NCBI RefSeq assembly: GCF_012295525.1
Contig: NZ_CP051167.1
Coordinates: forward strand, 5,685,299-5,749,298
Source: Oxynema aestuarii AP17
GTDB taxonomy: Bacteria; Cyanobacteriota; Cyanobacteriia; Cyanobacteriales; Laspinemataceae
Direction: 5' to 3'
DNA length: 64,000 nt
Below, in pieces: positions 10,464-47,200 of the stretch (its first letter is position 1; every line of letters begins with the position of its first letter). Made by a program: the position numbers and the translations under genes. The notes under the pieces are model-generated. The model was not told the origin of the DNA, searched no databases, and was given only the letters and a program-made list of their open reading frames with translations.

Positions 10464-11250
10464 TATAAGTGCAACCTTAATTCTTTATTAAAAAATAATT
10501 TATTGTTATTTGCTGTTTTTATAAGTTCTTCCTGTAGATAGATTTTAGTCAGTTTAAAACCGAGATAAAGTGAATGGTAAATATAAGCTAAAATCGCAGT
10601 CATTGTCAGCTAAATATCGGAAAGCTCAATCTCTAGTTTAAGAAGCGGTAAAGAAAAGACGAGTTCCTCTCAGCCTCCCGGTAATTGCCCAAAAATAGTT
10701 GATTTTAGGGATTTTTAGGATAAAATAGGTTTAATTTACCTGCTGGCCAACACTGAGATTTTAAAGTGTTAGAATGCAGTTATTTAAGCCTCAAAAAAGC
10801 TTGACAGGGCGATCGCTGCAGTTCCATCGGGATCTTAGTGATGAACGATAAGATTAAATCGATATCAACGCTTTTAAAAATTGAATCTGCGATCGTTTAT
10901 ACCGATCGCCAAAATGGAGGAAGGACGATCGCCTTCAGGGGGAACGCGCCACGAACGATCGCCTCAATGAAAACTAATTCAAACATCGATTGCCGCGAAT
11001 CCATCAAACATGCGTTCGCGTTCGCGCAGCGTGCGCCTTGCGCTTAGCGACGCCTCCAGCGTATCGCATCGTCTTCGTCTGCAAGAGAGTGACTGGGGGG
11101 AATTTTCATCCGTCGGGAAATGGTGGGGGGTTTGGGCATCGGACCCAAGCCGGGTGTATCGGCTAAAAAATAAGACCGAATAACTGATACTAAGTGGTTT
11201 TAGTATTTGCAGCTCACAGGTCAGGTAAAATAATCCAAGAGGTAATTAAT

Positions 11251-13269
11251 ATGGAGATCGATACAGCCGTACCGCGCGATCGCCGCTCTCGTCATCACGG
11301 TAAAGAAGTATCCCCAGCAGTATCCCCGTCCGTCTCCTTGTCAGGGAGCACCACCGTCGCCACCGTACCGAAACCACCGGAGCAGACTCAATTCTTGCGG
11401 TGTATCGAAGCGGCGGAAGACTTGCTGATCCAGTACGACGCGCGATCGCGCTCTTCGTGGGTGAACCCGGCGGGAGCCGCGCAACTGGGGATCTGCCCGT
11501 CCTCGGCGATCGGTAAAACCAATGGGGAGCTCTTTGGTCAAGCGGGAGAAGTCCTCGATAAGGCCCTCGCACGGGCGATCGCCACTGGGGAAAGCACCTC
11601 GATCGCCCAAGAACTGGCGACCGCAAAAGGACGACAAACTTATAACTTTGTATATACGCCCGTGCGCGACGACGCCGGAGAAATTTGCGGGGCGATCGCC
11701 ATCGGTAGAGACCTGGGACGCCTGAACGCGGATTCTCGATCCGATCCTCCGCCCCATTCGGGACAGGTCGAAGTGGCGTTAGAACAAGCCGAATCCCTGC
11801 AAGATGTCAAAGCGCAAGCGCGCGAACTCGCCAACGCCCACCAACGCCAGCACGCCTTAGCCACGACCATCGACAACATCCGGCGATCGCTCGATATCGA
11901 GACGATTTTTAACACGACTACTCAGGAAGTGAGACAACTCCTACAGTGCGATCGCGTCGCCGTTTATCGCTTCAACCCGGACTTTAGCGGCATCTTCGTC
12001 GCCGAATCGTTCGCCGAAGGCTGGAAAGCCCTCGTGGGGAACCTTCCGGTGATTGCGGACAGTTACCTGCAAGAAACCCGAGGCGGACGCTACCGCCATA
12101 ACGAAACCGTCGCCGTCGCCGATATTTACAACGCCGGACACGCCCAATGTCACGTGGAAATGCTCGAAAGTTTCCAGGCGAAAGCCTACGCGATCGTGCC
12201 GATTTTCCACGGCGAAACCCTTTGGGGACTGCTGGCGGCGTATCAAAATGACGGCCCGCGCCAGTGGGAAGCTTACGAGGTCGAACTTCTCGCCCAGATT
12301 GGGGTTCAGTTCGGCGTCGCCATCCAACAAGCCCAATTACTCGATCGCACCCAACGCCAGAAAGAAGAACTCACCCAAACCCTCAACGAGTTGAAACAAG
12401 CTCAAACCCAACTGATTCAGTCGGAAAAAATGGCGAGTTTGGGGCAACTGGTCGCCGGAATTGCCCACGAAATTAACAATCCGGTCAATTTTATTTATGG
12501 CAATCTCACCTATGTCGGCGAATATATTCGCGATTTGCTCGAACACGTTCAATTGTACGAGCAGTATTATCCCGATCCTCCAGAGGCGATCGCCGAACAC
12601 GCCGAAGAGATGGAATTGGAGTTCTTACAAGAAGATTTGCCCAAAATCCTCGGTTCGATGAGGGTCGGCGCCGATCGCATTCGCCAGACCGTGATCTCGT
12701 TGCGGAATTTTTCCCGCCTGGACGAAGCGACGGTCAAAGCGGTGGATCTCCACGAAGGACTCGACAGTACCTTACTGATTTTGCAACATCGCCTGATCGA
12801 CCCGGCCCACGGTCCGAGTATCGAGTTAGTGAAAAATTACGGCAAGTTGCCAAAAGTCGAATGCTACGCCGCCCCCATCAATCAGGTATTTATGAGCTTG
12901 TTGGGGAATGCGATCGACGCGATCGAGTCCCATTTTGCCAGTCAAGGGGATTCGAACAACGGCGAACGGGTCAAACCGAAGATCGTTGTCGAAACCGCTC
13001 CCCTGGGTAAGGATCGCGTAGAAATCCGCATTCGCGATAACGGTCCGGGAATGAGCGAAGCGGTGCGATCGCACATTTTTGAACCCTTTTTCACCACCAA
13101 ACCTGTCGGAAAAGGCACCGGATTAGGATTGTCGATCTCCTATCAAATTATCGTCGAAAAACACGGCGGTCAGATCGAGTGTCACTCCCAACCCGGTGAA
13201 GGAACCGAGTTCGTGATTCAATTGCCGCGAACCCAAGGCGCTTGTGAGAGAGTCGGGAATCGGGAATAG
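11251..13269 (+). CDS. Sensor histidine kinase (PAS - GAF - HisKA - HATPase_c)
   Basis: H-box LGQLVAGIAHEINNPVNF. G-boxes DNGPGM and GTGLGLSISYQII. GAF-like block CDRVAVYRF. SD AAGAGG lies 9 nt before ATG 11251. The ORF track starts earlier at 11194. Confidence 0.85.
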   Translation: MEIDTAVPRDRRSRHHGKEVSPAVSPSVSLSGSTTVATVPKPPEQTQFLRCIEAAEDLLIQYDARSRSSWVNPAGAAQLGICPSSAIGKTNGELFGQAGEVLDKALARAIATGESTSIAQELATAKGRQTYNFVYTPVRDDAGEICGAIAIGRDLGRLNADSRSDPPPHSGQVEVALEQAESLQDVKAQARELANAHQRQHALATTIDNIRRSLDIETIFNTTTQEVRQLLQCDRVAVYRFNPDFSGIFVAESFAEGWKALVGNLPVIADSYLQETRGGRYRHNETVAVADIYNAGHAQCHVEMLESFQAKAYAIVPIFHGETLWGLLAAYQNDGPRQWEAYEVELLAQIGVQFGVAIQQAQLLDRTQRQKEELTQTLNELKQAQTQLIQSEKMASLGQLVAGIAHEINNPVNFIYGNLTYVGEYIRDLLEHVQLYEQYYPDPPEAIAEHAEEMELEFLQEDLPKILGSMRVGADRIRQTVISLRNFSRLDEATVKAVDLHEGLDSTLLILQHRLIDPAHGPSIELVKNYGKLPKVECYAAPINQVFMSLLGNAIDAIESHFASQGDSNNGERVKPKIVVETAPLGKDRVEIRIRDNGPGMSEAVRSHIFEPFFTTKPVGKGTGLGLSISYQIIVEKHGGQIECHSQPGEGTEFVIQLPRTQGACERVGNRE

Positions 13270-13316: not shown

Positions 13317-15539
13317 CTATCGATCCAAGCGTTCGAGCAGTTCCTTCGCCGCCGGATAAGCGGCGGTATCTTGGGGAACGAGCTGCGCGGCTTGAGTGGC
13401 GGTAGAGAAACGGCGACGACTGGCGCGATATTGGGCAATTTGCAAGATCGTATCGCTCCAGCGCTCGATTAAGGTGCGCGCTTGCTCGTATTGGGGCTGT
13501 CCCGGCGTAATTTGGCGAGCGAGGGCGATCGCGCGGTTGTAAGACGATGCCTGTCCCCGCCGGACGAGAGATTGGGCTTCTTGCAAGATTTCCCGATTTT
13601 TCTCGGCAATTTGCGCCTCTCGCTCCCATTCAGGCATCCTGGCTTGTACTTCTTTTTGTAATTGCGGGCGGTCTTTCGGGACTAATTTACCCGCCGCGAC
13701 GGCGCCTTCGTAGTTGCCTTGTTGGGCGCGACTGATGGCAATATCGAGAATAACCGCTCCCCAGCGATCGATATCTTTCTGCGCTTGGGCGTAACGCGGA
13801 TCGTCTTTTGGTATGTCGCGGGCTTCGGCGATCGCATAGCTGAATTGATGAGCCTGAGCGGGTTCTAGCGGTGCCAGCGCGCGATCGAGGTCTTCCGTTT
13901 CTCCAGGGCTACCCGTGGCTGTATTGTCTTGGTTTCCAGTCGGGGCTGGGGTTTGAGGGGTAGCAGCAGTGGTGCCATTGTTATTCCCCGTAGCAGCAGT
14001 GGCACCGTTATTATTCCCCGTAGCAGCAGTGGTGCCATTGTTATTCCCAGTAGCAGCAGTAGCGCCGTTATTCTCCCCAGTAGCAGCAGTGGCGCCGTTA
14101 TTGCCTTCGTTATTGTTCCCAGTAGCAGCAGTGGCGCCGTTATTCTCCCCAGTAGCAGCAGTGGCACCGTTATTGCCTTCGTTATTGTTCCCAGTAGCAG
14201 CAGTGGCGCCGTTATTGCCTTCGGTATTATTCCCAGTCGTGTTCGTTCCAGCCGTTGCAGGGGTTTCGCTATTGCCAGTCGTTCCCGTATTTCCAGCCGT
14301 TCCCGTCGTCGTCGTTCCGATCGCCCGAACGGGTTCGCCGTCACCTGTAACTTGCTCGGTTGGCGTTTCCTCCTGCCCCTCGGAATTGACCATTTTGACT
14401 AATTCCGGCCAAAACAGACCTAAAAGAATGACGAGAGCGACTAAACCGCCCCAAAATAGCCAACCTGCTATGCTGTTGCTGCGATTTTCCTCATCGTCGT
14501 CGCTGTCGAGGGGGGCGGGAGGAGGTTGGATGGTATTGCCAACGGGAGAATAACCCGTATTGTCGATATTCGGATCGGCCCAGCGCGATCGCCGTTCCCG
14601 TTCCGGGTCAAAATAAGGCAATTCAATACGGTTTGTATTGCTGGCGGTTTGGGTGGGGGTGGGGGCAGATGGCGCCAACTCCTCACGAGGCGGCAGGTCT
14701 GCATCGTCGTAACCCGAGTGTGACGCCGTCGTGGGGATCCCGGTTGCCATGGCGGCGAGTTCGCGATCGCCTGCATTCATAGCCCCCGCCATCACCAGTT
14801 GGCGCGGGAGGAACACCAATTGCAGTTTTTCCGGGGGATGGGCGATCGTCAAGGGGTCTTGACGGGGGCGACAGTGACGCTCGCATAATTGAGGGAGACG
14901 ATCGCACAAGAGGCGATCGAGACTTTCGAGGTTGTCCACGTCCCCGGATCGTAATGCTTCGAGCAAAGCGGCGGTAAAGAACCCGTGTTGTAGCGCCCCG
15001 GTTTCCCGAGAAAATTGTTCGTGCTGACAGGAGAGGATCGTGGGAATTTGCATTTCTCGGGCAAATTCCGCCGTCGATCGCCCGATTTCCTCCCCCGCAC
15101 TGGTTCCCATCGCCCGATTCATATCGAGGACGACGAGAATTTTATCGGTGGGACAGGCGTTAAAGGCATTGTAGAGCGATCGCATCGAAATGCCCGTCGC
15201 GCCGATATCGTCGGGGTTACCGTCAATAGGCATCAAGTAGTCTTCGCCGCGCCAAGTGACGCCGTAACCGCTAAAGAAGAACCACAAGACATCGTCGGAT
15301 TGGAGTTGGCGATCGCAAAATTCCTCGATCGCGTCGCCGAGGTTGGCTTGAATCGGATAAATCAAATTACTTTGCAGTTCGATGGAACTGTCGGTCACCA
15401 ATAAGGTGCGTTCCCCTGCAAAGCCCCGATTTTGGAGTAAAAATCGCGCCAGTTCTTCCGCGTCTTGCTTGGCGTATCCTAACGGCTGTAAATATTTATA
15501 TTCGTTAATCCCAATAAAGATACCTGCATGAGTTGTCAT
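13317..15539 (-). CDS. Orthocaspase-like (peptidase C14 fold) membrane protein, predicted catalytically inactive: caspase-like N-domain, TM helix, low-complexity GATAATGNNNG tandem repeats, and three C-terminal ~45-aa repeats
   Basis: N-terminus IFIGINEYK ... DDVLWFFFSGYG (Tyr where the catalytic His of SGHG would be) ... KILVVLDMNRAMG (no Cys at the DxCHSG position). TM segment IAGWLFWGGLVALVILLGLFW. Repeats are directly visible. Confidence 0.7.
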   Translation of the reverse strand: MTTHAGIFIGINEYKYLQPLGYAKQDAEELARFLLQNRGFAGERTLLVTDSSIELQSNLIYPIQANLGDAIEEFCDRQLQSDDVLWFFFSGYGVTWRGEDYLMPIDGNPDDIGATGISMRSLYNAFNACPTDKILVVLDMNRAMGTSAGEEIGRSTAEFAREMQIPTILSCQHEQFSRETGALQHGFFTAALLEALRSGDVDNLESLDRLLCDRLPQLCERHCRPRQDPLTIAHPPEKLQLVFLPRQLVMAGAMNAGDRELAAMATGIPTTASHSGYDDADLPPREELAPSAPTPTQTASNTNRIELPYFDPERERRSRWADPNIDNTGYSPVGNTIQPPPAPLDSDDDEENRSNSIAGWLFWGGLVALVILLGLFWPELVKMVNSEGQEETPTEQVTGDGEPVRAIGTTTTGTAGNTGTTGNSETPATAGTNTTGNNTEGNNGATAATGNNNEGNNGATAATGENNGATAATGNNNEGNNGATAATGENNGATAATGNNNGTTAATGNNNGATAATGNNNGTTAATPQTPAPTGNQDNTATGSPGETEDLDRALAPLEPAQAHQFSYAIAEARDIPKDDPRYAQAQKDIDRWGAVILDIAISRAQQGNYEGAVAAGKLVPKDRPQLQKEVQARMPEWEREAQIAEKNREILQEAQSLVRRGQASSYNRAIALARQITPGQPQYEQARTLIERWSDTILQIAQYRASRRRFSTATQAAQLVPQDTAAYPAAKELLERLDR
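13958..14240. repeat. Intragenic tandem repeat array, ~8 units of 33 bp (two 48-bp variants), consensus CCCCGTAGCAGCAGTGGCRCCGTTATTATT
   Basis: Seen in sequence. It encodes the GNNNGATAATG repeats of the orthocaspase-like protein and spawns spurious ORFs in all other frames. Confidence 0.85.
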
Positions 15540-16675
15540 TGTCGCTTCCCCACTCGTATTTAAAAATAGAAAGACTCAAACCCAATTTTAAGGCGATCGA
15601 GCCGACCTGTACGCGAACCCTATCCGACCGTCGTGCTTCCCCATTTTAGGGGAGTAATGCTGAAATCGTAGCGTCGATCGCCCCAGAATTCAACGAACTT
15701 TCAGGGATCGCAGACGATTGAGGGCTAGCGCCAGTTCAAAGCGGCGAAATACGGCCAAATCTCCCTCGGGAAAGGGGGTTAACCAATGCGACCCTTGGCT
15801 ATGGATGTCTTCGACGACCCGATCGACGATCTCGGCGAGCGATCGCCGCCCGTCGATATATTTATCTCGATATATTTATCTTTGACATAAACCATGGCCG
15901 CCGCGATCGACTGGGTGCGCCAAGGGGCGGCAGCTATTCCCGATGAGAATTACGAGATCCCTGAAAATACCGTCAACAGTCGGAGGAAATGCGACAAGCA
16001 GAAACAGAATGGATTTATACACAATGCGATCGCCTGCAAGAAAGTTCACAAGGGTTATTAAAAATTGTCGAAGTTGGTGATATTTTAATTCAAAAAAATA
16101 ATCATAGATCGACGGTATGTTGAACATAGTCAACCGATGACGCAACTCCCTTTCAACAGCATCCACAAACATAACCTTTAGAGAGACAAACGCCTGACTT
16201 AACAACTTTAGCCAACGGAAGCGTTTCAACTTACATTCCGCAGTTCATAAAAATGAAAAGAAGAGGCATAGTAAAGCGGACAAGCCTCTGATAGATCTGT
16301 TGAAAAAGAGCTGAGGCGTCAAAAAATTCAGCTTCAGTTTCAATTCGCCATTTCACCCCTTTGACTTCTGCGAACAGAAACATGGCAGCGAACGGGCGAT
16401 CGCTTGCGCTGTTCCGAATAATTTCTGTCTGCCACAGACTTTAAACGTTGAGCTTCCGTAACAAAACTAAAAAGTTTCGATCGTGCCAAATCGCTCTCGA
16501 CAATTCATAGGTCGTGCAGCACGATTGAGTTTCGATTGTAGCATGTTATATTAACGAACTCAGCCCCATCCCAATTTTGGTAAATATCGGGTGATTTGCG
16601 ATTTCTCAGGCAAAACTCATTCGAGTTCCCTGTAATTGAGATAACATCACAAGAGCGATCTCGCGATCGCCCTTC

Positions 16676-17689
16676 TTGCACCCACAAACAGTACAGCCGA
16701 TGATTCAGACCTCGATCTCCCCCTTTCAAACCAAACTCGGAGCCCCCTTAACCAAGCGCCCCATCAAAGTATTGCAAATCAATTTAGGCAAACGTTGCAA
16801 TCTCGCTTGCACTCATTGCCACGTAGAAGCCGGACCGAAGCGCACCGAAGAAATGACCCCGGAGGTTTGCGAACAACTGATCGAAGTAATCCGCCGTTTC
16901 GAGGGGATTGAAACCGTCGATTTAACCGGGGGTGCGCCGGAAATGAATTATGGTTTCAAACCCTTAGTCGAAGCTGCGCGGGAAACGAATAAAGAAGTCA
17001 TCGTCCGTTCTAATTTAACCATTTATTTTGAGCCGGGATATCAAGACCTTCCCGAATATTTTGCTCGTCATCAGGTTCGCGTCGTCGCTTCGCTGCCGTG
17101 CTATTTAGAAGATAACGTCGATCGAATGCGCGGTTCGGGGGTATATGACGGTTCCATTCGGGCTTTGCAATGGCTGAATCAATTGGGGTACGGCAGCGAC
17201 CCGAATTTAATCCTCGATTTAGTTTACAATCCCCCGGTTCCTACCGATCGGGATAAGTTTAGTTTACCCCCACAACAACAATCCTTAGAAACCGCTTACA
17301 AAACCTATTTAAGGGAGAATTTTCAAATCGAGTTCGACCGTTTACTAACGATTACGAATTTACCGATCGGACGCACGAAATTCCACTTAGAAAAACACGG
17401 TCTCAAGCGCCCTTATTTAGAATTTCTCGAAGCCAATTTTAACCCCACCACTGTCGAGAATTTGATGTGTCGCGACGAACTCTCCATCGACTATCTCGGT
17501 AATGTTTACGATTGCGATTTCAATCAAATGGAAGGACTTCCAGCGCGCACAAAAAGCGGTGAAGCGCTCACGATCGCCAAACTGCTCGAATGGGGAACGC
17601 TAGAGGCGAGCGATCGCGTGCAAACGGCTCCCTATTGCTACGGCTGCACGGCGGGTTGCGGTTCGAGTTGTGGTGGGTCGCTGGTGTGA
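16676..17689 (+). CDS. arsS: Radical SAM protein resembling arsenosugar-biosynthesis ArsS (N-terminal CxxxCxxC and a Cys-rich C-terminal tail)
   Basis: CNLACTHC radical SAM triad. C-terminal CYGCTAGCGSSCGG motif. The ~340-aa size is characteristic of the ArsS family. An alternative start is ATG 16700 (MIQTSIS). Confidence 0.7.
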   Translation: MHPQTVQPMIQTSISPFQTKLGAPLTKRPIKVLQINLGKRCNLACTHCHVEAGPKRTEEMTPEVCEQLIEVIRRFEGIETVDLTGGAPEMNYGFKPLVEAARETNKEVIVRSNLTIYFEPGYQDLPEYFARHQVRVVASLPCYLEDNVDRMRGSGVYDGSIRALQWLNQLGYGSDPNLILDLVYNPPVPTDRDKFSLPPQQQSLETAYKTYLRENFQIEFDRLLTITNLPIGRTKFHLEKHGLKRPYLEFLEANFNPTTVENLMCRDELSIDYLGNVYDCDFNQMEGLPARTKSGEALTIAKLLEWGTLEASDRVQTAPYCYGCTAGCGSSCGGSLV

Positions 17690-17943
17690 GACCGCACCGC
17701 AATTAAAGCATCCGGTTTCTGACCGATTGAGGGGAAAGGATAGAAACCGGGTGGCTGGGTGCCTACGATCTACGCGGTCAATTAACCGATCGCCAAGGTT
17801 TAACAAACGCCTTAGTTCTGAGGAAAACCTTACCCGCGATCTGCAAAAACATTCTACATTACAATTTTTGTAAAACCGATAACACGGCTATGCAAGTTTG
17901 TTATATTATCCAAATTAATTTGGATTTAATGCGAGGCGATCGA

Positions 17944-19019
17944 ATGGCATCTCAACTGACGAAAACCAGTAAACCGCTCTTTTCTCAACATTTCCTCGAT
18001 CGCCGCATTCAAGAACTTCCAGAAGCGCAGAACGCCCAGATTACGCGCTGTTTGCTTCTGAAAATCTCAAAAACGAAGCATTTTTGGTTCGAGAAGACGA
18101 AACGGCTTTTTACCATAAAGTGACGGCGATCGCAGAAGCAAAGTATTGGGAACGTGCGCTGAGTAAGGTTTCTAAAAACGACAAGCGCGATCGCTTCAAA
18201 AACGACAACCCATCGTTTCAGATTGTTAATTATCTAACGGGGACGGGCGTTGACTGGGGAGTCTTGACCAACGGACGGGAATGGCGACTGTATTACCGTC
18301 AAGGATCCTCAAAAGCGAAAGAATCCTATCAAATCGATTTGGTGGAAATTCTCGAATCAGAAAAAGACGAACCGGAGCAATTAGAAAAATTTAAATATTT
18401 TTGGCTGTTTTTCCGGCGCGACGCCTTTGTGAAAGACGCCTATGGAAAAACCTTTCTCGATCGCGTGCGGGAAGAAAGTACCACCTACGCCACGGAAGTG
18501 GAAGCCGAATTGAAAAAACTCGTCTTCGAGCGCGTGTTTCCCGATTTAGCGGGGGGATTCGTGGCGGCGGCGTATCGTCGGGGAGAGACGCCGGGACCTC
18601 GCGCAGTTTACGAGGCGACGCTATCGTTTCTGTATAAAATCTTGTTTTTGCTGTACGCGGAAGGGAAAAACCTGCTTCCGAGTCAGTTGGAGGCGTATCG
18701 CGAGTATAGTTTAATCGGGATGACGCAGGAAATCGCGACTCGCATCGATCGCGCCGCCACCTTCAGTCAGGCGGCGACGGGATGGTACGATAAACTCCTG
18801 AGTCTGTTTCACATTGTCGATCGCGGGGATGCAGTGTTACAGGTTCCCCGGTACAACGGCGGCTTGTTTCATCTGGCGTCGGCGACAAATGGCGGAACGG
18901 AGTCGAACGAAAACGAGTTTCTGCAACAGACGCTGCAACCGATTTTGAAAACGCGGGTGGCGCAGTTTGAGGCGAAGATGGCGGAAATTGAGGCGGTTCG
19001 ATCGCAAATTGCCAAATAG
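17944..19019 (+). pseudogene. Frameshifted and 3'-truncated remnant of a type IIG restriction-modification / BREX PglX-like enzyme (N-terminal region only)
   Basis: Two overlapping ORFs in different frames, 17890-18123 and 18084-19019, together encode an N-terminal region with ...LFSQHFLDRRIQEL... and the conserved ...PRYNGGLFHL motif seen in MmeI-like enzymes. The methyltransferase and target-recognition domains are absent. The ORF ends 44 bp from the tRNA. Confidence 0.5.
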
Positions 19020-19063
19020 GCACGAGAGTCAATATCCTAACCTAATTTAGGACAATAAAAAAA

Positions 19064-19136
19064 TGGAGAATAGGAGATTCGAACTCCTGACCTCTGCGGT
19101 GCGATCGCAGCGCTCTACCAACTGAGCTAATTCCCC
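19064..19136 (-). tRNA. tRNA-Ala (anticodon CGC)
   Basis: A 73-nt cloverleaf folded by hand: acceptor GGGGAAT/ATTCTCC with the G3:U70 Ala identity pair, D-arm GCTCAGTTGGTAGAGC, anticodon loop AUCGCAC, T-arm GGAGTTCGAATCTCC. CCA is not encoded. Confidence 0.85.
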
Positions 19137-19247
19137 GTGGCCGAACCTTTGCTATCCTAGCATACGCTTTAGAAAAATTGAAAGGGCTGGCCGAAAATTT
19201 TTTCAAAATTCCTAAAATCGCTGCTAGATCGAGGCTTCCCCGGTCTC

Positions 19248-19952
19248 TCAAGCGACGGGGGCGTAAACTTGCTGGATGCGATCGAGTTCGAGGTCGCGCA
19301 AGTAATCCACAGTCCAGTTAGCTTGGCGCTGGAGCATGTGAAACGGGTAAGTATTGGCGACGCCGACCACAGCAATTCCGGCGCGTTTGGCCGCTTCGAT
19401 CCCCGGGGGGGTATCCTCGATCGCCAGACATTGAGACGGTTTGAGGTGTAAGTCCGGATAACAATCATTCAGACGGGCGATCGCCCGTCGGTAGCCGTCC
19501 GGTTGCGGTTTGCTCGTGGTCACGTCATCTCCGGCGACGATCGCCGAAAAATATTCCGCTAAATTCGTTCGATGCAAAACCAACTCAACTTCCGCACGCA
19601 ACGCCCCGGTCACGATCGCCAACTTCAATTGAGCGCCGTGCAACTGATAAATTAACTCCGCCACCCCGGGAAAAATTGGCAGTTGCTCCATCTTCTCCAA
19701 CGCTTTGTGATACGCCTTCGCCTTGCGCGCCACCAGTTCGTCTAAATAATCGTCGGTGACGAAGCGACCGCGCGACATCAACAGCTCTCGCAAGCAGGCG
19801 CGATCGCTCCGTCCCAGGCAAATTTCGCGAAATTCCCCCGGTTTGGGGCGTAAATTCTCCTCGATCAGCAACTCCCCGATTAACTGTTCGTGTAAAGGTT
19901 CGTCATCGACAATCACCCCGTTGAAATCGAATAAAACCGCTTTGATACTCAT
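19248..19952 (-). CDS. HAD-superfamily hydrolase, subfamily IA (beta-phosphoglucomutase-like phosphatase)
   Basis: Motif I AVLFDFNGVIVDDEP, plus downstream motifs II-IV (VTGA..., GDDV...). SD GAGAGGG before ATG 19952. Start lies 17 nt downstream of the methyltransferase stop, suggesting an operon. Confidence 0.8.
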   Translation of the reverse strand: MSIKAVLFDFNGVIVDDEPLHEQLIGELLIEENLRPKPGEFREICLGRSDRACLRELLMSRGRFVTDDYLDELVARKAKAYHKALEKMEQLPIFPGVAELIYQLHGAQLKLAIVTGALRAEVELVLHRTNLAEYFSAIVAGDDVTTSKPQPDGYRRAIARLNDCYPDLHLKPSQCLAIEDTPPGIEAAKRAGIAVVGVANTYPFHMLQRQANWTVDYLRDLELDRIQQVYAPVA

Positions 19953-19968
19953 CGCTTTACCCTCTCGC

Positions 19969-20838
19969 TCAATAACTCGGCGCACTCGCCCAAGTCGGTT
20001 CGGTTCGGTCCGGTTCCGCTTCCGTCGCCGTCGGTTCCCCGGGGGCGATCGGTTTGACCCCGCGCGTCAGTTGGTTCAACCCCCACACCTGTTCGGTTTG
20101 CACCGCGCCAAATCCTGCCGCCCCCATCCAGGCGTCTACACTGCCTCGGGCGTATTCTTGGAGATACGGCTCTTCAAAAATGTCCATCATCCAGGGATTG
20201 TCCCGTAGGGTGTGCTGATGACCGTCGAGAATCAGCACCTCGCCGCCGACGCGCAAGAGGCGATAACTTTCCTTGAGGATCGCGCGGGCGATCGCCTCCG
20301 GGGTTTCGTGAAACAGCAACGATGCCGCGACCACGTCGAAGGATTCGTCATCAAATCCCGTCGCTTCCGCTTTAGCGTGAACCCAGGCGATTTCGACTCC
20401 CGCTTCGCGCGCCTTGCGATCGCCCATCACCAGCATGTAGGGCGACAGATCTAACCCCACCACCTCCGCGTCTGGAAATGCTTGTTTCAGCATCAGCGTC
20501 GTCGAACCCGTCCCGCAGCCGAGATCGAGAATTCGTCGCGGACGGGCGCGGATCGAGTGGATAACGCTTTCTCTGACCCAAGTTTCGTTAGGGGGTAAGG
20601 CGTATCGAGTAATCGGGTCGTAAGAGGTCGCGGCGGAGGCATTGAGGTAACCGCCTTCAATCCCGTGGAAGTTTTGACGCTGGTAGTACGCCGGATAGGT
20701 CAAGTTGGGCTGGCGGAGGCGATCGGTTTCGCTCTCCCAATGGATACTACTGTTCAACTCGCGCACTTTATCCCAATCGACAAACCAGCCGCTAATCGGG
20801 GCGAGAAACTGTTCAAAAATTGTTTTTTTCTCGGACAT
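19969..20838 (-). CDS. Class I SAM-dependent methyltransferase (Methyltransf_11-like)
   Basis: Motif I ILDLGCGTGSTTL. Acidic motif II VVGLDLS. Post-I DVVAASLLFHE. Confidence 0.8.
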   Translation of the reverse strand: MSEKKTIFEQFLAPISGWFVDWDKVRELNSSIHWESETDRLRQPNLTYPAYYQRQNFHGIEGGYLNASAATSYDPITRYALPPNETWVRESVIHSIRARPRRILDLGCGTGSTTLMLKQAFPDAEVVGLDLSPYMLVMGDRKAREAGVEIAWVHAKAEATGFDDESFDVVAASLLFHETPEAIARAILKESYRLLRVGGEVLILDGHQHTLRDNPWMMDIFEEPYLQEYARGSVDAWMGAAGFGAVQTEQVWGLNQLTRGVKPIAPGEPTATEAEPDRTEPTWASAPSY

Positions 20839-21093: not shown

Positions 21094-22902
21094 TTAACGA
21101 ACCGAGACCACAACTCCAGCACTCTCATTGGCGAGGCGGTCTGCCGCACAGAGGGCATAAGTTCCCGGGGCTAAATTAGCGCTCGTCGTTTGGGCGTTAA
21201 AAATCTGTTTCAGTTGCCAGTTATTGCCCACCTGTTGGTAAAGCGTCCACGAACGCACCTCGTTGGAACTATCCCGATTCCAGGTCAAGTTACGACCGTT
21301 GAGGCTGACCCCCGTCGGACTTTGAGGGGGCGTAGCATCCAACCAAGGCATAGTCGGGGCCAGGGCGGGAGTCGTGTAGAGCTGGCTGCGGAAGCGATCG
21401 TTAACGCCGAGGCGATTTTCCTTAAACACCTTCATGCTAAAGAAAATATTCCCCAGAGAGAGCTTATCCGCACCCGCGCGGGAGATTTCCACCTGACGCT
21501 CGAACTCGGAAATCGGCCAAGAGCTCCCATCGAGTTTACTCAGATAATTTCCGGCGTAAATATGGCGGCGGAAGGGGTTGTGATCGCTCCACCACTGTAA
21601 TAAAACCGGATAACTTTGTTGGGGCGGATCGATGCGCCAGTACAGTTGAGGGGCGAGGTAGTCCACCCAGCCTTTTTCCAGCCACAGTTTGACATCCGCA
21701 TAAATTGCTTCGTACTGGTCCATCCCCACAATGCCGGGGGCTTTTCCGGGACGGTAAATCCCGAAGGGGCTGATCCCGAATTTCACCGAGGGTTTCTCGG
21801 TTTTGATACCTTTCCAGATGCGTTCGATGACCTGGTTGACATTTTGCCGCCGCCAGTCCGACACGGAGAGGGTTCCGCCTGCTTGTCGGTAAGCGTTATA
21901 AGTTTGCGAATCGGGGAATTGAATCCCTTCTTTGGGATAGGGATAGAAATAATCGTCGAGGTGGATACCGTCCACGTCGTAGCGGCGCACCACGTCCATA
22001 ATCACGTTGTAAACCCGGTCTTGTACGGGTTTGGCGCCGGGGTCCATCCAGATCAGATCGCCGTATTGATAGGCGTATTGCGGGTATTGGGCCGCCATGT
22101 GGTTGGGGCCGTAGGGATATTTTTCCCCGCCCATTTTGGCGCGGTAGGGGTTAAACCAGGCGTGCAGTTCGATGTTGCGTTTGTGGCTTTCGGCGATCGC
22201 AAATTCCAGAGGATCGTAATACGGGTTCGGCGCTTTCCCTTGAGTTCCCGTCAGCCAACCACTCCACGGCTCGATTTCGGAAGCGTAAAGGGCGTCCCCA
22301 TTCGGTCGGATTTGCAAGATCAAGGCGTTGAGATTGAGTTCTTGCATCCGGTCGAGGATGTTGATTAATTCCGCCTGTTGTTGGCTGACCGACAAATCGG
22401 ACCGCGAGGGCCAGTCGATATTGACCACCGAGGCGACCCAAGCCCCGCGAAACTCGTGTTGATGATTGACCCCAATTTTGGGCAGGAACTGGGCGGCGGG
22501 GGCGGGTGCGGGGGTAACGACAGGTTCCTCGGGTTGCTCCATCGGCGGGGGTGCGGGAAGAGGTACGGAAGCGGGATTCGGTCTCGCGATTTGGGTTGTG
22601 GTTTCTGTTGCCGTTTCTGGGGTAAACGGGACTGAGGCGGTCGGTTCGTAAGCGAAAGCGCGAGTGGCGCTGGTTGCGAGTAACAGCAAGCAGCCCCAAA
22701 TCGCAAATTGGGCGGCGAAACTGGGTCGTTTCCGGAAGACCGTTTGTAAGGAGTGCTGGTAAATCGACCAAAGTTGTTGGAAAAGCCGGAATATGACCCT
22801 AAATAAGCGGGTAAGTCGCATAGATTTGGAATTTTTCAAGTTCGATCGCATCAATTTCATAAACCTTGATTGAGCGGTGTACCCCATATTGAAAATCGGC
22901 AA
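21094..22902 (-). CDS. Glycoside-hydrolase-like family 10 protein (YddW/DUF187-type) with signal peptide and Pro-rich linker
   Basis: Conserved core FRGAWVASVVNIDWPS ... NALILQIRPNGDALY ... ELHAWFNPYRA typical of DUF187/GHL10. Start is uncertain; Met at ~22821 is possible. Confidence 0.75.
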   Translation of the reverse strand: MPIFNMGYTAQSRFMKLMRSNLKNSKSMRLTRLFRVIFRLFQQLWSIYQHSLQTVFRKRPSFAAQFAIWGCLLLLATSATRAFAYEPTASVPFTPETATETTTQIARPNPASVPLPAPPPMEQPEEPVVTPAPAPAAQFLPKIGVNHQHEFRGAWVASVVNIDWPSRSDLSVSQQQAELINILDRMQELNLNALILQIRPNGDALYASEIEPWSGWLTGTQGKAPNPYYDPLEFAIAESHKRNIELHAWFNPYRAKMGGEKYPYGPNHMAAQYPQYAYQYGDLIWMDPGAKPVQDRVYNVIMDVVRRYDVDGIHLDDYFYPYPKEGIQFPDSQTYNAYRQAGGTLSVSDWRRQNVNQVIERIWKGIKTEKPSVKFGISPFGIYRPGKAPGIVGMDQYEAIYADVKLWLEKGWVDYLAPQLYWRIDPPQQSYPVLLQWWSDHNPFRRHIYAGNYLSKLDGSSWPISEFERQVEISRAGADKLSLGNIFFSMKVFKENRLGVNDRFRSQLYTTPALAPTMPWLDATPPQSPTGVSLNGRNLTWNRDSSNEVRSWTLYQQVGNNWQLKQIFNAQTTSANLAPGTYALCAADRLANESAGVVVSVR

Positions 22903-44240: not shown

Positions 44241-47200
44241 ATGTTCTTTTCTCTTGACGGCTACCAAGTCCTCGAATTAGTTTCTGAAACTGCAGCCTCG
44301 AAAGTTTATCGAGGCATCCGAGAAGACGATCGCACCCCAGTCGTCCTTAAACTTCTCAACAGCGAATATCCCACCCCCATTCAGTTAAAACGATATCGAC
44401 GAGAATATGAAATCCAAAAGAAATTAACCGGGGAAAAGATTTGTCAGGCGATCGCGCTTGAAGAATATAAAAACACCCTGATATTAATTTCTGAAGATGC
44501 AGGCATCTGTTTAAAACATCTCCTCAAGCGAGAACCGTTAACTTTGACGGAAAAGCTCGAAATAGCGATCCAAATTTGCGAGGCATTAGCGGAGGTCCAT
44601 CGAGCTAATATTATTCATAAAGACATCAATCCTTTTAATATCGTTGTCAATTCTGAAACTCGCAAAGTAAAGCTGATTGATTTCGGGATTGCAACTGCTT
44701 TAACCCGAGAACATCCCACCCTCAAGAATCCTACAATTTTAGAAGGAACGTTACCTTATATTTCTCCCGAACAAACCGGGCGGATGAATCGATCTTTAGA
44801 CTATCGTAGCGATTTTTATTCCTTCGGGATCGCCTTATACGAAATGTTTTCGGGACGAGTTCCTTTTGAGAGTGACGATGCGTTAGAGTTGGTTCACTGT
44901 CATATTGCTAAACCGCCGACCCCTTTAGATCGCCTAGATTGGGGGGACTCTGGTGATTTTCCCCAACCCTTGAGCGAGATCGTCATGAAATTGCTCGCGA
45001 AAAATGCGGAAGAACGGTATAAAAGTGCGTGGGGAATTCAAGCAGATTTAGCAGAATGTTTGGAACAACTCAAGGCGACCAATAGGGTTCGACCATTTGC
45101 TTTAGGGAAAAAAGATATTTCCGATCGCTTTGAAATTCCCCAAAAGCTTTATGGGAGAGAAAAAGAACTAGAAAGGTTATTAAAAGCTTTTTTTGATGTA
45201 GCTTCCACGCCAGAAGAACGGGGCGATCGCCAATCGGCTCGAACGAAATTGATTGTTGTTGAAGGATATTCTGGGGTAGGTAAATCTTGTTTAGTCTTAC
45301 AACTTTATAAACCCATTACTCGCCGTCGCGGTTATTTTATTTCGGGAAAATTCGATCAATTTCAGCGCAATATTCCCTATTCGGCGGTCGTTAGTGCTTT
45401 TCAGCAATTAGTCCGACAGTTGTTAACAGAAAGTGAAGCAGAATTAAAACGCTGGCGAGATAAAATACTGGCGGCGATCGCCCCCAACGCTCAAGTGATT
45501 GTCGATGTTCTTCCCGATATTGAAAAAATTATTGGTAAGCAGCCCCCAGTCGCCGAAGTGGGGGCGTCAGAAGCCCAAAATCGGTTTAATTTAGTCTTTC
45601 AAAACTTCATTCGGGCATTTTGCGATCGCGACCATCCCCTGACTATTTTTCTCGACGATTTACAATGGGCCGATTTAGCCAGTCTCAAATTGATCGAGTT
45701 AATGATGAGCGACGATCGTACCGAATATTTATTACCGATTGTTTCGTATCGAGAAAATGAAGTCGATGCTACACATCCGGCGATCGTTACCATTGAAAAA
45801 CTGCGTCAACAAGGGATTGAAATCGAGCAGATAGCCTTACAACCTTTGGATAAAGGCGCGATCGCTCAATTAGTAGCCGACACCTTACAGCATCCTGTTG
45901 AAAGAGTAGAAAGCTTAGCAAAATTACTGTTGCAAAAAACGGAAGGAAATCCATTTTTTGTCAATCAGTTTTTACAAACATTATATACAGAAGGCGCTAT
46001 TTTTCTAGATCTCCAGACTCATCAATGGCAGTGGGATGTTGCCGAGATCGAGCGCATGGATATTGCCGAAAATGTCGTTGAATTAACGGTAAAAAATTTA
46101 AAAAAATTACCCGAACTCACTCAAAAAGTTCTCCATCTTGGTGCTTGTCTCGGGTCGGAGTTTGATTTAGATACTCTGGCTACGATCGATCGCCAATCGA
46201 CTCAAGAACTCTTCAATCTCTTACTTCCTGCCGTAGAATCGGGTAGTGTTTTAACCCACAGCGATCGCGAAGAACGTCCCCGTCAAATCTATCAATTTGC
46301 TCACGATCGCATTCAACAAGTCGCCTACAATTCCTTTGAGGAAAACTACACGAAAAATATTCACTTGCAAATCGGTCGTTTTCTCTTGGAAGAAACCCCT
46401 CAAGAGAGTTTGCATGAAAATATTTTCGCGATCGCCGATCATTTTAATTTTGCTAAAGAACGAGTTATCGATTGTAACGAAATTGAAATGATAGCGAAAC
46501 TGAACTTGATGGCTGGAGAAAAGGCGATCGCCTCGACGGCTTATCCTGCAGCTTTAAATTATTGTCAAAAGGCGATCGATTGTCTGAGTGATTCTTGCTG
46601 GGAAGCACAATACGATCTGACCCTAACACTTTATACGAAACTCACCAAGGCGGCATTCTTATGCGGTCAGTTTGACAACGTAGAAAAATTTGCACGCATA
46701 GTTATCGATAACGCCAAGAATCCCTTCGATACCGTGCAAGTGTACTACATTAAAATTGAAACAGGAATGGCTCAAAATCAACTACAAAAAGCCATTCAAA
46801 TTGGTTTGAGCATTCTCAAAAAATTGGGAGTTGATTTTGGAGAAAATCTCGAAGCCATTGACGTGACTCAAAGTCTCGAAAATATTAACCGTCGATTGGC
46901 AAATATCGAACCCGAAAGCCTGCTCGATTTGCCGATCTTAGAAGATCCCCAACAATTGGGAATTCTGGAAATTCTCACTATTGTATCTCCTTGTTCTTTT
47001 ATTACAGCTCCTCAATTATTTATTGCCATCATTTGTAAGCAAATTGAAATTTACTTAGTCGCGGGAAATGCTATAAGTTTCGCTCCCACCACTTACGCAT
47101 TTTATGGATCGATTTGCTGTGGAATTCTGGGGGATGTAGAACGGGGTTATCAATTTGGTAAGCTGGCTATCAATTTAATTGATAAGTTTCACTTAGAAGC

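What the first reader, a model, noticed from the sequence alone, without database searches (positions are those of the whole stretch)
15540..19136. tRNA-Ala with a decayed restriction-modification gene remnant and an orphan arsS on its 3' side, a likely eroded genomic islet
Immediately 3' of tRNA-Ala(CGC) lies a type IIG RM / PglX-like gene. It is both frameshifted (the ORFs 17890-18123 and 18084-19019 are in different frames) and truncated after its N-terminal ~310 aa, so the methyltransferase and target-recognition domains are missing. Next to it sits a solitary arsS-like radical SAM gene with no arsM partner in the window, and a 1.1-kb gene-free stretch. tRNA 3' ends are classical integration sites. 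This looks like the remains of an integrated defence or metal-resistance islet that has lost its integrase and most of its cargo.
Basis: inference. Interest (0 to 1): 0.55.

Follow-up and report, generated by a model that had tools for sequence, protein, structure and literature searches.

The report
Dead restriction gene beside tRNA-Ala
Next to an alanine tRNA gene of the cyanobacterium Oxynema aestuarii lies the broken front quarter of a restriction-modification gene, probably the last scrap of foreign DNA, while the neighbouring arsenic gene arsS is an intact, long-standing chromosomal resident; this is ordinary genome decay.

Summary
tRNA-Ala(CGC) lies at 19064-19136 (-). An intact arsS lies at 16700-17689. 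No arsM is present in the 64 kb. The stretch 15540-16699 has no recognisable gene. The region 17944-19019 holds only about the first quarter of a ~1270-aa type IIG restriction-methyltransferase.

The "frameshift" is really a ~55-codon deletion with a frame change. A second, in-frame ~80-codon deletion is probable. The methyltransferase and target-recognition part is absent from the whole window. A 99.3 %-identical sister contig shares these lesions and adds another frameshift.

- arsS is not island cargo. In at least 14 other cyanobacterial loci arsS lies a few kb from the same MT-HAD-tRNA-Ala(CGC) cluster. It is often solitary there. Here it shows only synonymous differences and native codon usage.
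- Its position on the tRNA's 3' side requires an inversion.
- Only the restriction-gene relic is a candidate for foreign DNA.
- The orthologous tRNA carries tyrosine integrases or integrase fragments in four other cyanobacteria, so an integration origin is plausible.
- No integrase trace, att repeat or compositional anomaly survives here.

Overall this is an ordinary pseudogene next to an ordinary gene, of low interest.

The parts
19064..19136 (-). tRNA-Ala(CGC). It is the conserved end of the MT-HAD-tRNA cluster, and its 3' end faces the restriction-gene relic.
   Evidence: ARAGORN. Rfam RF00005 67.8 bits. Orthologues aligned.
19020..19063 (.). 44-nt spacer between the relic's stop codon and the tRNA 3' end. 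Read on the tRNA strand it gives a T-run and a small CCTAA-A-TTAGG hairpin.
   Evidence: Sequence read directly. No homology to the integrase-bearing flanks of relatives.
18024..19019 (+). Main body of the type IIG restriction-methyltransferase pseudogene: PD...EAK nuclease motif plus helical region, about 331 codons. The annotated ORF starts at TTG 18084. It ends at roughly homologue position 490 of about 1270.
   Evidence: The sister strain has 20 substitutions and a 1-nt indel here.
17944..18027 (+). First 28 codons of the same pseudogene (MASQLTKTSKPLFSQHFLDRRIQELPEA), in a different frame. They are followed by the junction of a ~55-codon deletion near 18022-18030.
   Evidence: Alignment A1. 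tblastn with P0004 residues 6-28 and with residues 71 onward. Three-frame translation.
18909..19016 (+). Tail of the relic (ENEFLQQ|TLQPILKTRVAQFEAKMAEIEAVRSQIAK). The part after about 18930 matches the homologue segment that follows the SYYTPDYIV motif, which implies a second, in-frame deletion of about 80 codons.
   Evidence: Local alignment scores 45-50 with 0 of 500 shuffles reaching them, against 21-28 for the colinear alternative. Probable, not proven.
17879..17935 (+). Promoter-like site (ATAACA-17-TATATT) and a perfect 14-nt palindrome CCAAATTAATTTGG (17910-17923) just upstream of the relic's ATG. Probably the old promoter/operator of the restriction gene.
   Evidence: The sub-threshold Rfam CRISPR-DR11 hit (29.1 bits, gathering score 45) at 17900-17935 is judged spurious. 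The sequence is unique in the window.
16700..17689 (+). arsS, the arsenosugar-biosynthesis radical SAM enzyme. It is intact and under purifying selection.
   Evidence: TIGR04167 423.8 bits against a cut-off of 300. Pfam Radical_SAM plus DUF3641. Three synonymous and no non-synonymous differences from L037. Codon score 0.30.
15540..16699 (.). Non-coding stretch of about 1.16 kb between the divergent caspase-domain gene (start at 15539, minus strand) and arsS. It is HIP1-rich (3.5 per kb). From 15791 onward it is identical in the sister strain.
19248..20838 (-). HAD-family hydrolase (19248-19985) and UbiE-like class I methyltransferase (19969-20838). They are the deeply conserved partners of this tRNA. 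The methyltransferase is not ArsM.
   Evidence: below every NCBIfam cut-off. MT-HAD-tRNA-Ala(CGC) order found in most of 36 genome loci.

Best explanation
The region holds two unrelated things.

(1) arsS (16700-17689) is a functional, native chromosomal gene. In many filamentous cyanobacteria arsS lies a few kb upstream of, and co-directional with, the conserved UbiE-like methyltransferase - HAD hydrolase - tRNA-Ala(CGC) cluster. In Oxynema a local inversion or rearrangement (inferred) has turned this cluster so that the tRNA's 3' end now faces the 3' end of arsS. The rearrangement has also separated arsS from any ars partners.

(2) Between arsS and the tRNA lies a dead type IIG restriction-methyltransferase gene (17944-19019).
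- It keeps its start codon, a promoter-like region and the PD...EAK nuclease/helical part.
- It has lost about 55 codons near the N-terminus, with a frame change.
- It has probably lost about 80 more codons in frame.
- It has lost all of the roughly 780 C-terminal codons (methyltransferase plus target-recognition domain).
- It cannot restrict or methylate DNA, and it is decaying further in a sister strain.

Its origin is inferred. The most likely route (about 45 %) is an element that entered at the 3' end of tRNA-Ala(CGC), a site used by integrases in other cyanobacteria. That element was then cut back by deletion up to the tRNA, which removed the integrase and the 3' part of the gene. Nearly as likely (about 40 %) is an ordinary chromosomally inserted restriction gene that decayed in place. 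The event is old: codon usage and HIP1 density are host-like.
For: Relic identity and lesions:
-.
- No methyltransferase or target-recognition homology anywhere in the window.
- The sister contig L037 (99.3 % identical) shares the lesions and has an extra 1-nt indel. It shows 10 synonymous and 10 non-synonymous changes in the relic, against 3 synonymous and none non-synonymous in arsS.

arsS is native:
- TIGR04167 above cut-off.
- Codon-usage score 0.30, against 0.33-0.35 for neighbouring genes.
- arsS is linked to MT-HAD-tRNA-Ala(CGC) in L001-L003, L016 and L010, and in L055, L071, L084, L085, L090, L098, L107, L110, L113, L116, L117 and L123.
- In every such locus except L010 (Pleurocapsa), arsS, MT and (where it is inside the fetched stretch) the tRNA lie on one strand. 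In the window arsS and the tRNA converge.
- Solitary arsS occurs in 8 of 55 loci.

The tRNA is a hot spot: integrases are found at the orthologous tRNA in L012, L030 and L013, and an integrase fragment in L009.

The relic is absent from all 27 other tRNA-Ala(CGC) loci examined.
Against: - No direct repeat of the tRNA 3' end and no integrase remnant, so a tRNA-targeted origin cannot be shown.
- Homologues of this restriction gene in eight other loci lie among housekeeping genes, away from tRNAs and integrases.
- The closest comparable genomes are distant (63-75 % protein identity). The inversion is therefore inferred from orientation, not from mapped breakpoints.
- The relic's 2.1 % divergence from the sister strain, against 0 % in 1.4 kb of non-coding flank (Fisher p = 1e-8), is not explained by simple neutral decay.
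Confidence: 0.78

Rival explanations
1. One reading: the whole stretch 15540-19063 (gap, arsS and restriction-gene relic) is one eroded island that integrated at tRNA-Ala and carried arsenic-resistance and defence cargo.
For: - The tRNA is a proven integration site elsewhere.
- arsS lacks its usual arsM partner. In 38 of 55 loci, and in Synechocystis, arsM and arsS are adjacent or co-transcribed (bioRxiv 10.1101/2022.09.23.509062).
- GC content across 15750-18500 is slightly lower than in the flanks.
Against: - arsS is linked to this same tRNA cluster in at least three separate cyanobacterial lineages, without any island features.
- Solitary arsS occurs there too (L107, L110, L116, L123).
- arsS has native codon usage, and the non-coding gap has a host-like HIP1 density.
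- arsS shows only synonymous change.
- No att repeat or integrase trace.
- No ars-gene remnants in the gap.
Confidence: 0.08
2. The restriction gene never came through the tRNA. It was an ordinary horizontally acquired chromosomal type IIG gene that decayed in place. Its adjacency to the tRNA results from deletion and inversion stopping at a gene that must be kept.
For: - Homologues in L038-L045 lie among housekeeping genes with no tRNA or integrase nearby.
- Several of them are themselves fragments (L038, L041), so in-place decay is common for this family.
- There is no att or integrase trace here.
Against: - The truncated 3' end lies only 44 nt from the 3' end of a tRNA that carries integrases or integrase fragments in four other cyanobacteria.
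- That coincidence is more easily explained by integration followed by deletion anchored at the attachment site.
Confidence: 0.4
3. The 311-aa ORF (18084-19019) is a functional stand-alone protein, for example a nuclease-domain protein retained after loss of the methyltransferase.
For: - The ORF is open for 311 codons and keeps the PD...EAK motif.
- Its codon score is gene-like at 0.30.
- The ratio of non-synonymous to synonymous changes against the sister strain is roughly 0.3 rather than 1.
Against: - The sister strain carries a frameshift just before the conserved PRYNGGLF block.
- The N-terminal ~85 residues are deleted or out of frame, and a conserved ~80-residue block is probably missing.
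- No family of intact proteins with this shape was found. Short homologues are contig-end or frameshift fragments.
Confidence: 0.05
4. The lesions are assembly errors in a PacBio/Canu genome.
For: The genome was assembled from PacBio Sequel long reads (PMC7595944). Such assemblies can carry single-base indels.
Against: - An independent short contig from another run (Logan SRR7905023, L037) has the same deletions and the same junction with the tRNA.
- The lesions are 165 nt or larger, and a 2.3-kb part is missing. They are not homopolymer indels.
Confidence: 0.02

Closest known systems
Type IIG (Eco57I/MmeI-like) fused restriction endonuclease-methyltransferases
   Same: - N-terminal PD-(D/E)xK nuclease region (PDYALF...AEAKYW) and the following helical region.
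- Best PADLOC model is REase_MTase_IIG.
- Homologues carry Eco57I, N6_Mtase and TaqI_C domains.
   Different: Only about the first quarter survives, with one or two internal deletions. The methyltransferase and target-recognition domains are absent, so it is a pseudogene and not a working member.
DISARM class 1 methylase DrmMI and BREX PglX
   Same: The N-terminal region also matches DrmMI models (64.8 bits). PglX is a related N6-adenine methyltransferase.
   Different: - No DISARM or BREX partner gene is adjacent. The immediate neighbours are arsS and a tRNA.
- PglX models did not match the relic at all. They matched only the methyltransferase part of homologue P0012.
tRNA-associated genomic islands (integrase next to the tRNA 3' end, att direct repeats)
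   Same: - Foreign-looking gene content begins directly at the 3' end of a tRNA.
- The orthologous tRNA carries integrases in L012, L030 and L013, and a decayed integrase in L009.
   Different: Here there is no integrase, no att repeat and no compositional signal. At most 1.3 kb (17690-19063) could be island remains.
arsM-arsS arsenosugar operon of cyanobacteria (Synechocystis arsMS)
   Same: ArsS is an equivalog-level match to TIGR04167, with a CX3CX2C cluster motif.
   Different: - There is no arsM within 64 kb.
- The arrangement resembles the alternative 'arsS ... MT-HAD-tRNA-Ala' neighbourhood seen in Microcoleus-type genomes, but in inverted orientation.

Membership tests
Type IIG restriction-methyltransferase | N-terminal PD-(D/E)xK endonuclease domain | tested here: met
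   PDYALF...AIAEAKYW aligns with homologues. PADLOC PDLC03613 positions 90-352 matched, E = 4.7e-20. About 55 residues upstream of the motif are deleted.
Type IIG restriction-methyltransferase | Gamma-class N6-adenine methyltransferase domain (motif I DPAxGSGxFL, catalytic NPPY-type motif) in the same polypeptide | tested here: not met
   The ORF stops at about homologue position 490. tblastn with the 798-aa, 289-aa and 577-aa methyltransferase/target-recognition ORFs of L039 and L045 finds nothing in the window.
Type IIG restriction-methyltransferase | C-terminal target-recognition domain (TaqI_C-like) | tested here: not met
   Same search as above. Absent from the window.
DISARM (DrmMI) / BREX (PglX) | Partner genes adjacent (drmA/B/C or brxA/B/C, pglZ, brxL) | tested here: not met
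   The flanking genes are arsS and tRNA-Ala. Wider neighbours are housekeeping or sensor genes. PglX models do not hit the relic.
tRNA-integrated genomic island | Tyrosine or serine integrase gene next to the tRNA | tested here: not met
   tblastn with the integrases of L012 and L030 against 15400-19200 gave a best E of 0.06, inside arsS. No integrase Pfam hit in neighbouring ORFs.
tRNA-integrated genomic island | Direct repeat of the tRNA 3' end (attR) at the far boundary | tested here: not met
   A 24-nt probe with up to 3 mismatches matched only the tRNA itself. The repeat finder found only HIP1-based repeats. Local alignment of the flank plus tRNA 3' half gave scores no better than shuffles.
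tRNA-integrated genomic island | Composition or codon usage differing from the host | tested here: not met
   Codon score is 0.30 for both arsS and the relic, against 0.33-0.35 for neighbours. HIP1 density is 1.9-3.5 per kb, against 2.7 per kb for the window.
tRNA-integrated genomic island | Content absent from the same site in relatives | tested here: inconclusive
   The relic is absent from 27 other tRNA-Ala(CGC) loci, but these are distant relatives. arsS is recurrently linked to the cluster, which argues against it being cargo. No close Oxynema genome was retrievable.
ArsS (arsenosugar radical SAM enzyme) | Full-length match to TIGR04167 above the cut-off, with the CX3CX2C motif | tested here: met
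   423.8 bits against 300, model positions 2-303 of 303. The motif CNLACTHC is present.
ArsS (arsenosugar radical SAM enzyme) | An ArsM partner that supplies the methylated arsenic substrate | tested here: inconclusive
   None in the 64-kb window. A genome-wide answer was not obtainable: the ArsM database search listed only the best 120 of more than 8000 hits, and Oxynema was not among them.

The most novel reading that the evidence does not exclude
arsS recurs beside a VTT/DedA-type membrane protein, a sensor kinase, the UbiE-like methyltransferase and the HAD-family hydrolase next to tRNA-Ala(CGC). The linkage is kept, in rearranged form, even in Oxynema. This could mean that the methyltransferase and the phosphatase-like hydrolase carry out the still-unassigned steps of arsenosugar biosynthesis downstream of ArsS, rather than being mere syntenic neighbours.
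Probability: 0.06. Interest if true: 0.6.

Novelty: already known. Interest (0 to 1): 0.15.

Why it matters
It matters mostly for annotation.
- ORFs 17890-18123 and 18084-19019 should be merged and marked as one type IIG restriction-methyltransferase pseudogene, not left as 'hypothetical protein'.
- arsS should not be read as island cargo.

Two modest by-products came out of the work. First, tRNA-Ala(CGC) downstream of the conserved MT-HAD pair is a recurrent integration site in cyanobacteria. Second, arsS has an alternative conserved neighbourhood besides the arsM-arsS operon. Neither changes current understanding.

Tried and rejected
- **attR-like repeats.** I searched with a 24-nt probe (up to 3 mismatches), a repeat finder, and local alignment of the tRNA 3' half plus flank. 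Only HIP1-driven matches appeared.
- **Integrase remnants.** tblastn with two integrases from orthologous sites found nothing.
- **Relics of ars genes in the 1.1-kb gap.** tblastn with aqp, arsH, arsC, arsM, a Pit-like transporter and the VTT protein found nothing.
- **The 117-aa ORF at 15876-16229 (-).** I first suspected a transposase fragment. It has no Pfam or NCBIfam hit. It has no real homologue in 1.84 billion representatives. Its coding score is at background level. Rejected as a gene.
- **Natural two-gene split of the restriction gene.** I considered whether the roughly 450-540-aa length of all database homologues reflects such a split. Rejected: in L039 and L045 the downstream ORFs continue the same protein after frame breaks in long-read assemblies; L041 continues past its stop; P0012 and P0067 run straight into the methyltransferase motif.
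- **CRISPR-DR11 hit at 17900-17935.** It is sub-threshold, unique in the window, and explained by an AT-rich palindrome.
- **The methyltransferase at 19969-20838 as a hidden ArsM.** It is below every NCBIfam cut-off and has a single cysteine.
- **Close Oxynema relatives.** Both the genome and the metagenome scans returned only distant relatives (75 % identity or less).
Full report
**Source and layout.** The window comes from the filamentous cyanobacterium Oxynema aestuarii. The 311-aa ORF is 100 % identical to a protein of that species on a 6,357,750-bp contig. The window carries 170 HIP1 (GCGATCGC) sites. The published genome is a PacBio/Canu assembly, CP051167 (PMC7595944).

The local gene order is:
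- PAS-GAF histidine kinase, 11194-13269 (+)
- caspase-domain protein, 13317-15539 (-)
- non-coding stretch, 15540-16699
- arsS, 16700-17689 (+)
- restriction-gene relic, 17944-19019 (+)
- tRNA-Ala(CGC), 19064-19136 (-)
- HAD hydrolase, 19248-19985 (-)
- UbiE-like methyltransferase, 19969-20838 (-)
- GHL10 glycosyl-hydrolase-like protein, 21094-22902 (-)

These assignments rest.

**Checking the observation.**
- The tRNA is found by ARAGORN and by Rfam (67.8 bits).
- arsS scores 423.8 bits against the equivalog model TIGR04167 (cut-off 300) over the full model.
- The window contains no arsM. The only class I methyltransferase motif belongs to the ORF at 19969-20838. That ORF falls below every NCBIfam cut-off.
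- Two genuine arsenosugar ArsM proteins taken from related loci (NF038099, 579 and 589 bits) find nothing else by tblastn.
- The stretch 15540-16699 is non-coding by every available test. Its ORFs score -0.37 to +0.03 bits per codon on a codon model trained on the window's long genes, while real genes score 0.30-0.35.
- The longest ORF in the stretch has no true homologue among 1.84 billion representative proteins.
- No Rfam family matches the stretch. No remnant of ars genes or integrases is detectable in it.

**Anatomy of the restriction-gene relic.** Homologues align along the relic and then continue into the motifs TGSYYTPDYIV and DPAMGSGHFL of an N6-adenine methyltransferase. In L039 the homologous 475-aa ORF is followed, 31 nt later, by a 798-aa ORF with Eco57I, N6_Mtase and TaqI_C domains. 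In L045 the gene is split into pieces of 456, 289 and 577 aa. The intact protein is therefore about 1270 aa long.

PADLOC places the relic at positions 90-352 of a 1250-position type IIG model. It gives a similar placement on DrmMI models. PglX models do not match the relic.

Three lesions are visible.
- **First lesion.** The first 28 codons (17944-18027, MASQLTKTSKPLFSQHFLDRRIQELPEA) match homologue residues 1-28. The sequence then resumes, in another frame, at SAERPDYALF (18024). About 55 codons are skipped. This is a deletion with a frame change, not a point frameshift.
- **Second lesion.** The last ~30 residues (TLQPILKTRVAQFEAKMAEIEAVRSQIAK) align best with the homologue segment that follows SYYTPDYIV. 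That alignment scores 45-50, and none of 500 shuffles reached it in four homologues. The colinear placement scores only 21-28. An in-frame loss of about 80 codons is therefore probable.
- **Third lesion.** Everything beyond about residue 490 is gone. The methyltransferase and target-recognition parts have no match anywhere in the 64 kb. The stop codon lies 44 nt from the tRNA's 3' end.

A 3,380-nt contig from an independent sequencing run (Logan SRR7905023, L037) is 99.3 % identical to window 15791-19115. It has the same arrangement and the same deletions, and it ends inside the tRNA. The lesions are therefore real and predate the split between the two strains. That contig also carries an extra 1-nt insertion at about 18835, which breaks the frame just before the conserved PRYNGGLF block.

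**Is arsS part of an islet?** No. I fetched loci through the conserved methyltransferase (genome collection) and through ArsS (metagenome collection).
- The order methyltransferase - HAD hydrolase - tRNA-Ala(CGC) is conserved from Microcoleus to Nostoc and Fischerella.
- In Microcoleus/Phormidium genomes the order is (aquaporin)-arsH-arsC-arsS-VTT protein-histidine kinase-MT-HAD-tRNA-Ala, all on one strand.
- The same block recurs in many metagenomic contigs. One of them (L090) has arsM-arsS followed by HAD-tRNA-Ala.
- In Pleurocapsa (L010) an arsM-like gene, a Pit-like transporter and arsS lie divergently next to MT-HAD.
- Among metagenomic arsS loci with at least 7 kb downstream, 9 of 34 carry MT/HAD. 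In all 8 whose fetched stretch extends past HAD, tRNA-Ala(CGC) follows.
- Among those with at least 2 kb upstream, 38 of 55 have arsM, 9 have arsH/arsC and 8 have neither.
- L107, L110, L116 and L123 show a solitary arsS ahead of the MT-HAD-tRNA cluster.

arsS is thus an old neighbour of this tRNA cluster, and it is often solitary there. In Oxynema it is intact. It has native codon usage. It differs from the sister strain at only three positions, all synonymous.

Except in Pleurocapsa (L010), arsS in the relatives is co-directional with the cluster and lies upstream of it. In Oxynema it converges on the tRNA. An inversion of one block relative to the other is required to explain this. That step is inferred. 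The breakpoints could not be mapped, because only distant relatives (75 % identity or less) were retrievable.

**Is the relic the remains of an island?** This is plausible but unproven.

In favour:
- The orthologous tRNA is a real integration site.
- Intact tyrosine integrases start 152-182 nt downstream of the tRNA in L012 (Pelatocladus) and L030.
- In L013 (Fischerella CENA71) the tRNA is cut after nucleotide 39 by an integrase-bearing element.
- In L009 (Fischerella PCC 73103) a 76-residue integrase fragment lies at the same spot.
- The relic is absent from the 27 other tRNA-Ala(CGC) loci examined.
- The relic's truncated end abuts the tRNA.

Against:
- No repeat of the tRNA end is present.
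- No integrase trace is present.
- Codon usage and HIP1 density are host-like.
- Homologues of this restriction gene in eight other loci lie among housekeeping genes, away from tRNAs and integrases, and are often fragments themselves.

I put integration at the tRNA followed by deletion back to the attachment site at about 45 %. I put in-place decay of an ordinarily inserted gene at about 40 %.

**Comparison with what is known.**
- The relic is a pseudogene of the type IIG family. It fails membership as a working enzyme, because the methyltransferase and target-recognition domains were tested for and are absent.
- It is not a DISARM or BREX component, since no partner genes are adjacent.
- As a tRNA island, the region meets only the 'tRNA at the boundary' criterion.
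- arsS is a standard ArsS. In Synechocystis arsS is a neighbour of arsM and is co-transcribed with it (bioRxiv 10.1101/2022.09.23.509062, citing Xue et al. 2017, 2019). The Oxynema arrangement is the less common solitary form.
- Whether arsM exists elsewhere in the genome could not be settled.

**Unexplained residue.** Between the two near-identical strains the relic carries 20 substitutions in 935 nt (10 synonymous, 10 non-synonymous). The roughly 1.4 kb of flanking non-coding DNA carries none, and arsS carries three (Fisher p = 1e-8). A recombination tract or gene conversion from a paralogue is the likeliest cause, but this was not testable here.

**Verdict.** This is a known kind of feature: a decayed restriction-modification pseudogene next to a resident arsS. 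Interest is low.

Noticed in passing
window 18085-18917 compared with L037: The restriction-gene relic is 2.1 % diverged from a sister-strain contig that is otherwise about 99.9 % identical. It carries 20 substitutions and 1 indel. About 1.4 kb of flanking non-coding DNA carries none, and arsS carries 3 synonymous changes. This suggests a recombination or gene-conversion tract confined to the pseudogene.
   Followed up: partly
L037 1-54 compared with window 15737-15790: The first 54 nt of the sister contig are unrelated to the window left of 15791. This indicates either a structural difference (a breakpoint in the non-coding stretch) or a contig-end artefact.
   Followed up: partly
window 17879-17935: A perfect 14-nt palindrome, CCAAATTAATTTGG (17910-17923), lies between a -10-like TATATT and the relic's ATG. 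It lies inside the stretch 17900-17935 that gives a sub-threshold Rfam CRISPR-DR11 hit (29 bits against a gathering score of 45). It is probably a relic operator or promoter. It is unique in the window and absent upstream of the homologues checked.
   Followed up: partly
L012 11901-13016; L030 4044-5159; L013 11739-12866; L009 3841-4068: The orthologous tRNA-Ala(CGC) downstream of the MT-HAD pair is a recurrent integration site. L012 and L030 carry intact tyrosine integrases. In L013 an element cuts the tRNA after nucleotide 39. L009 carries a 76-residue integrase fragment. The cargo ORFs have no Pfam matches.
   Followed up: partly
L016 2815-11956 and L055, L071, L084, L085, L098, L110, L113, L116, L117, L123: A conserved cluster, (aquaporin)-arsH-arsC-arsS-VTT/DedA-like protein-histidine kinase-UbiE-like methyltransferase-HAD hydrolase-tRNA-Ala(CGC), occurs in Microcoleus-type cyanobacteria. 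It is an alternative arsS neighbourhood to the arsM-arsS operon.
   Followed up: partly
window 19101-19108 and orthologues (alignment A2): A HIP1 octamer, GCGATCGC, occupies the anticodon stem-loop of tRNA-Ala(CGC). It is invariant in all eight orthologues aligned. It accounts for the only 'repeats' of the tRNA found elsewhere in the window.
   Followed up: no
window 13948-14253, within ORF 13317-15539 (-): The caspase-domain protein contains eight tandem repeat copies spaced 30 or 42 nt apart. They encode a low-complexity Asn/Gly/Thr/Ala-rich stretch.
   Followed up: no
window 44241-50096 and 50426-56326: Two adjacent ORFs of about 1950 aa each have C-termini resembling histidine-kinase catalytic domains, by tblastn with a Microcoleus kinase.
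   Followed up: no
L038, L041 (homologue loci): Cyanobacterial homologues of this type IIG gene are themselves often truncated or fragmented. L041 is cut off by a convergent NACHT-pentapeptide gene. L038 lacks the N-terminus and is followed by short ORFs.
   Followed up: partly
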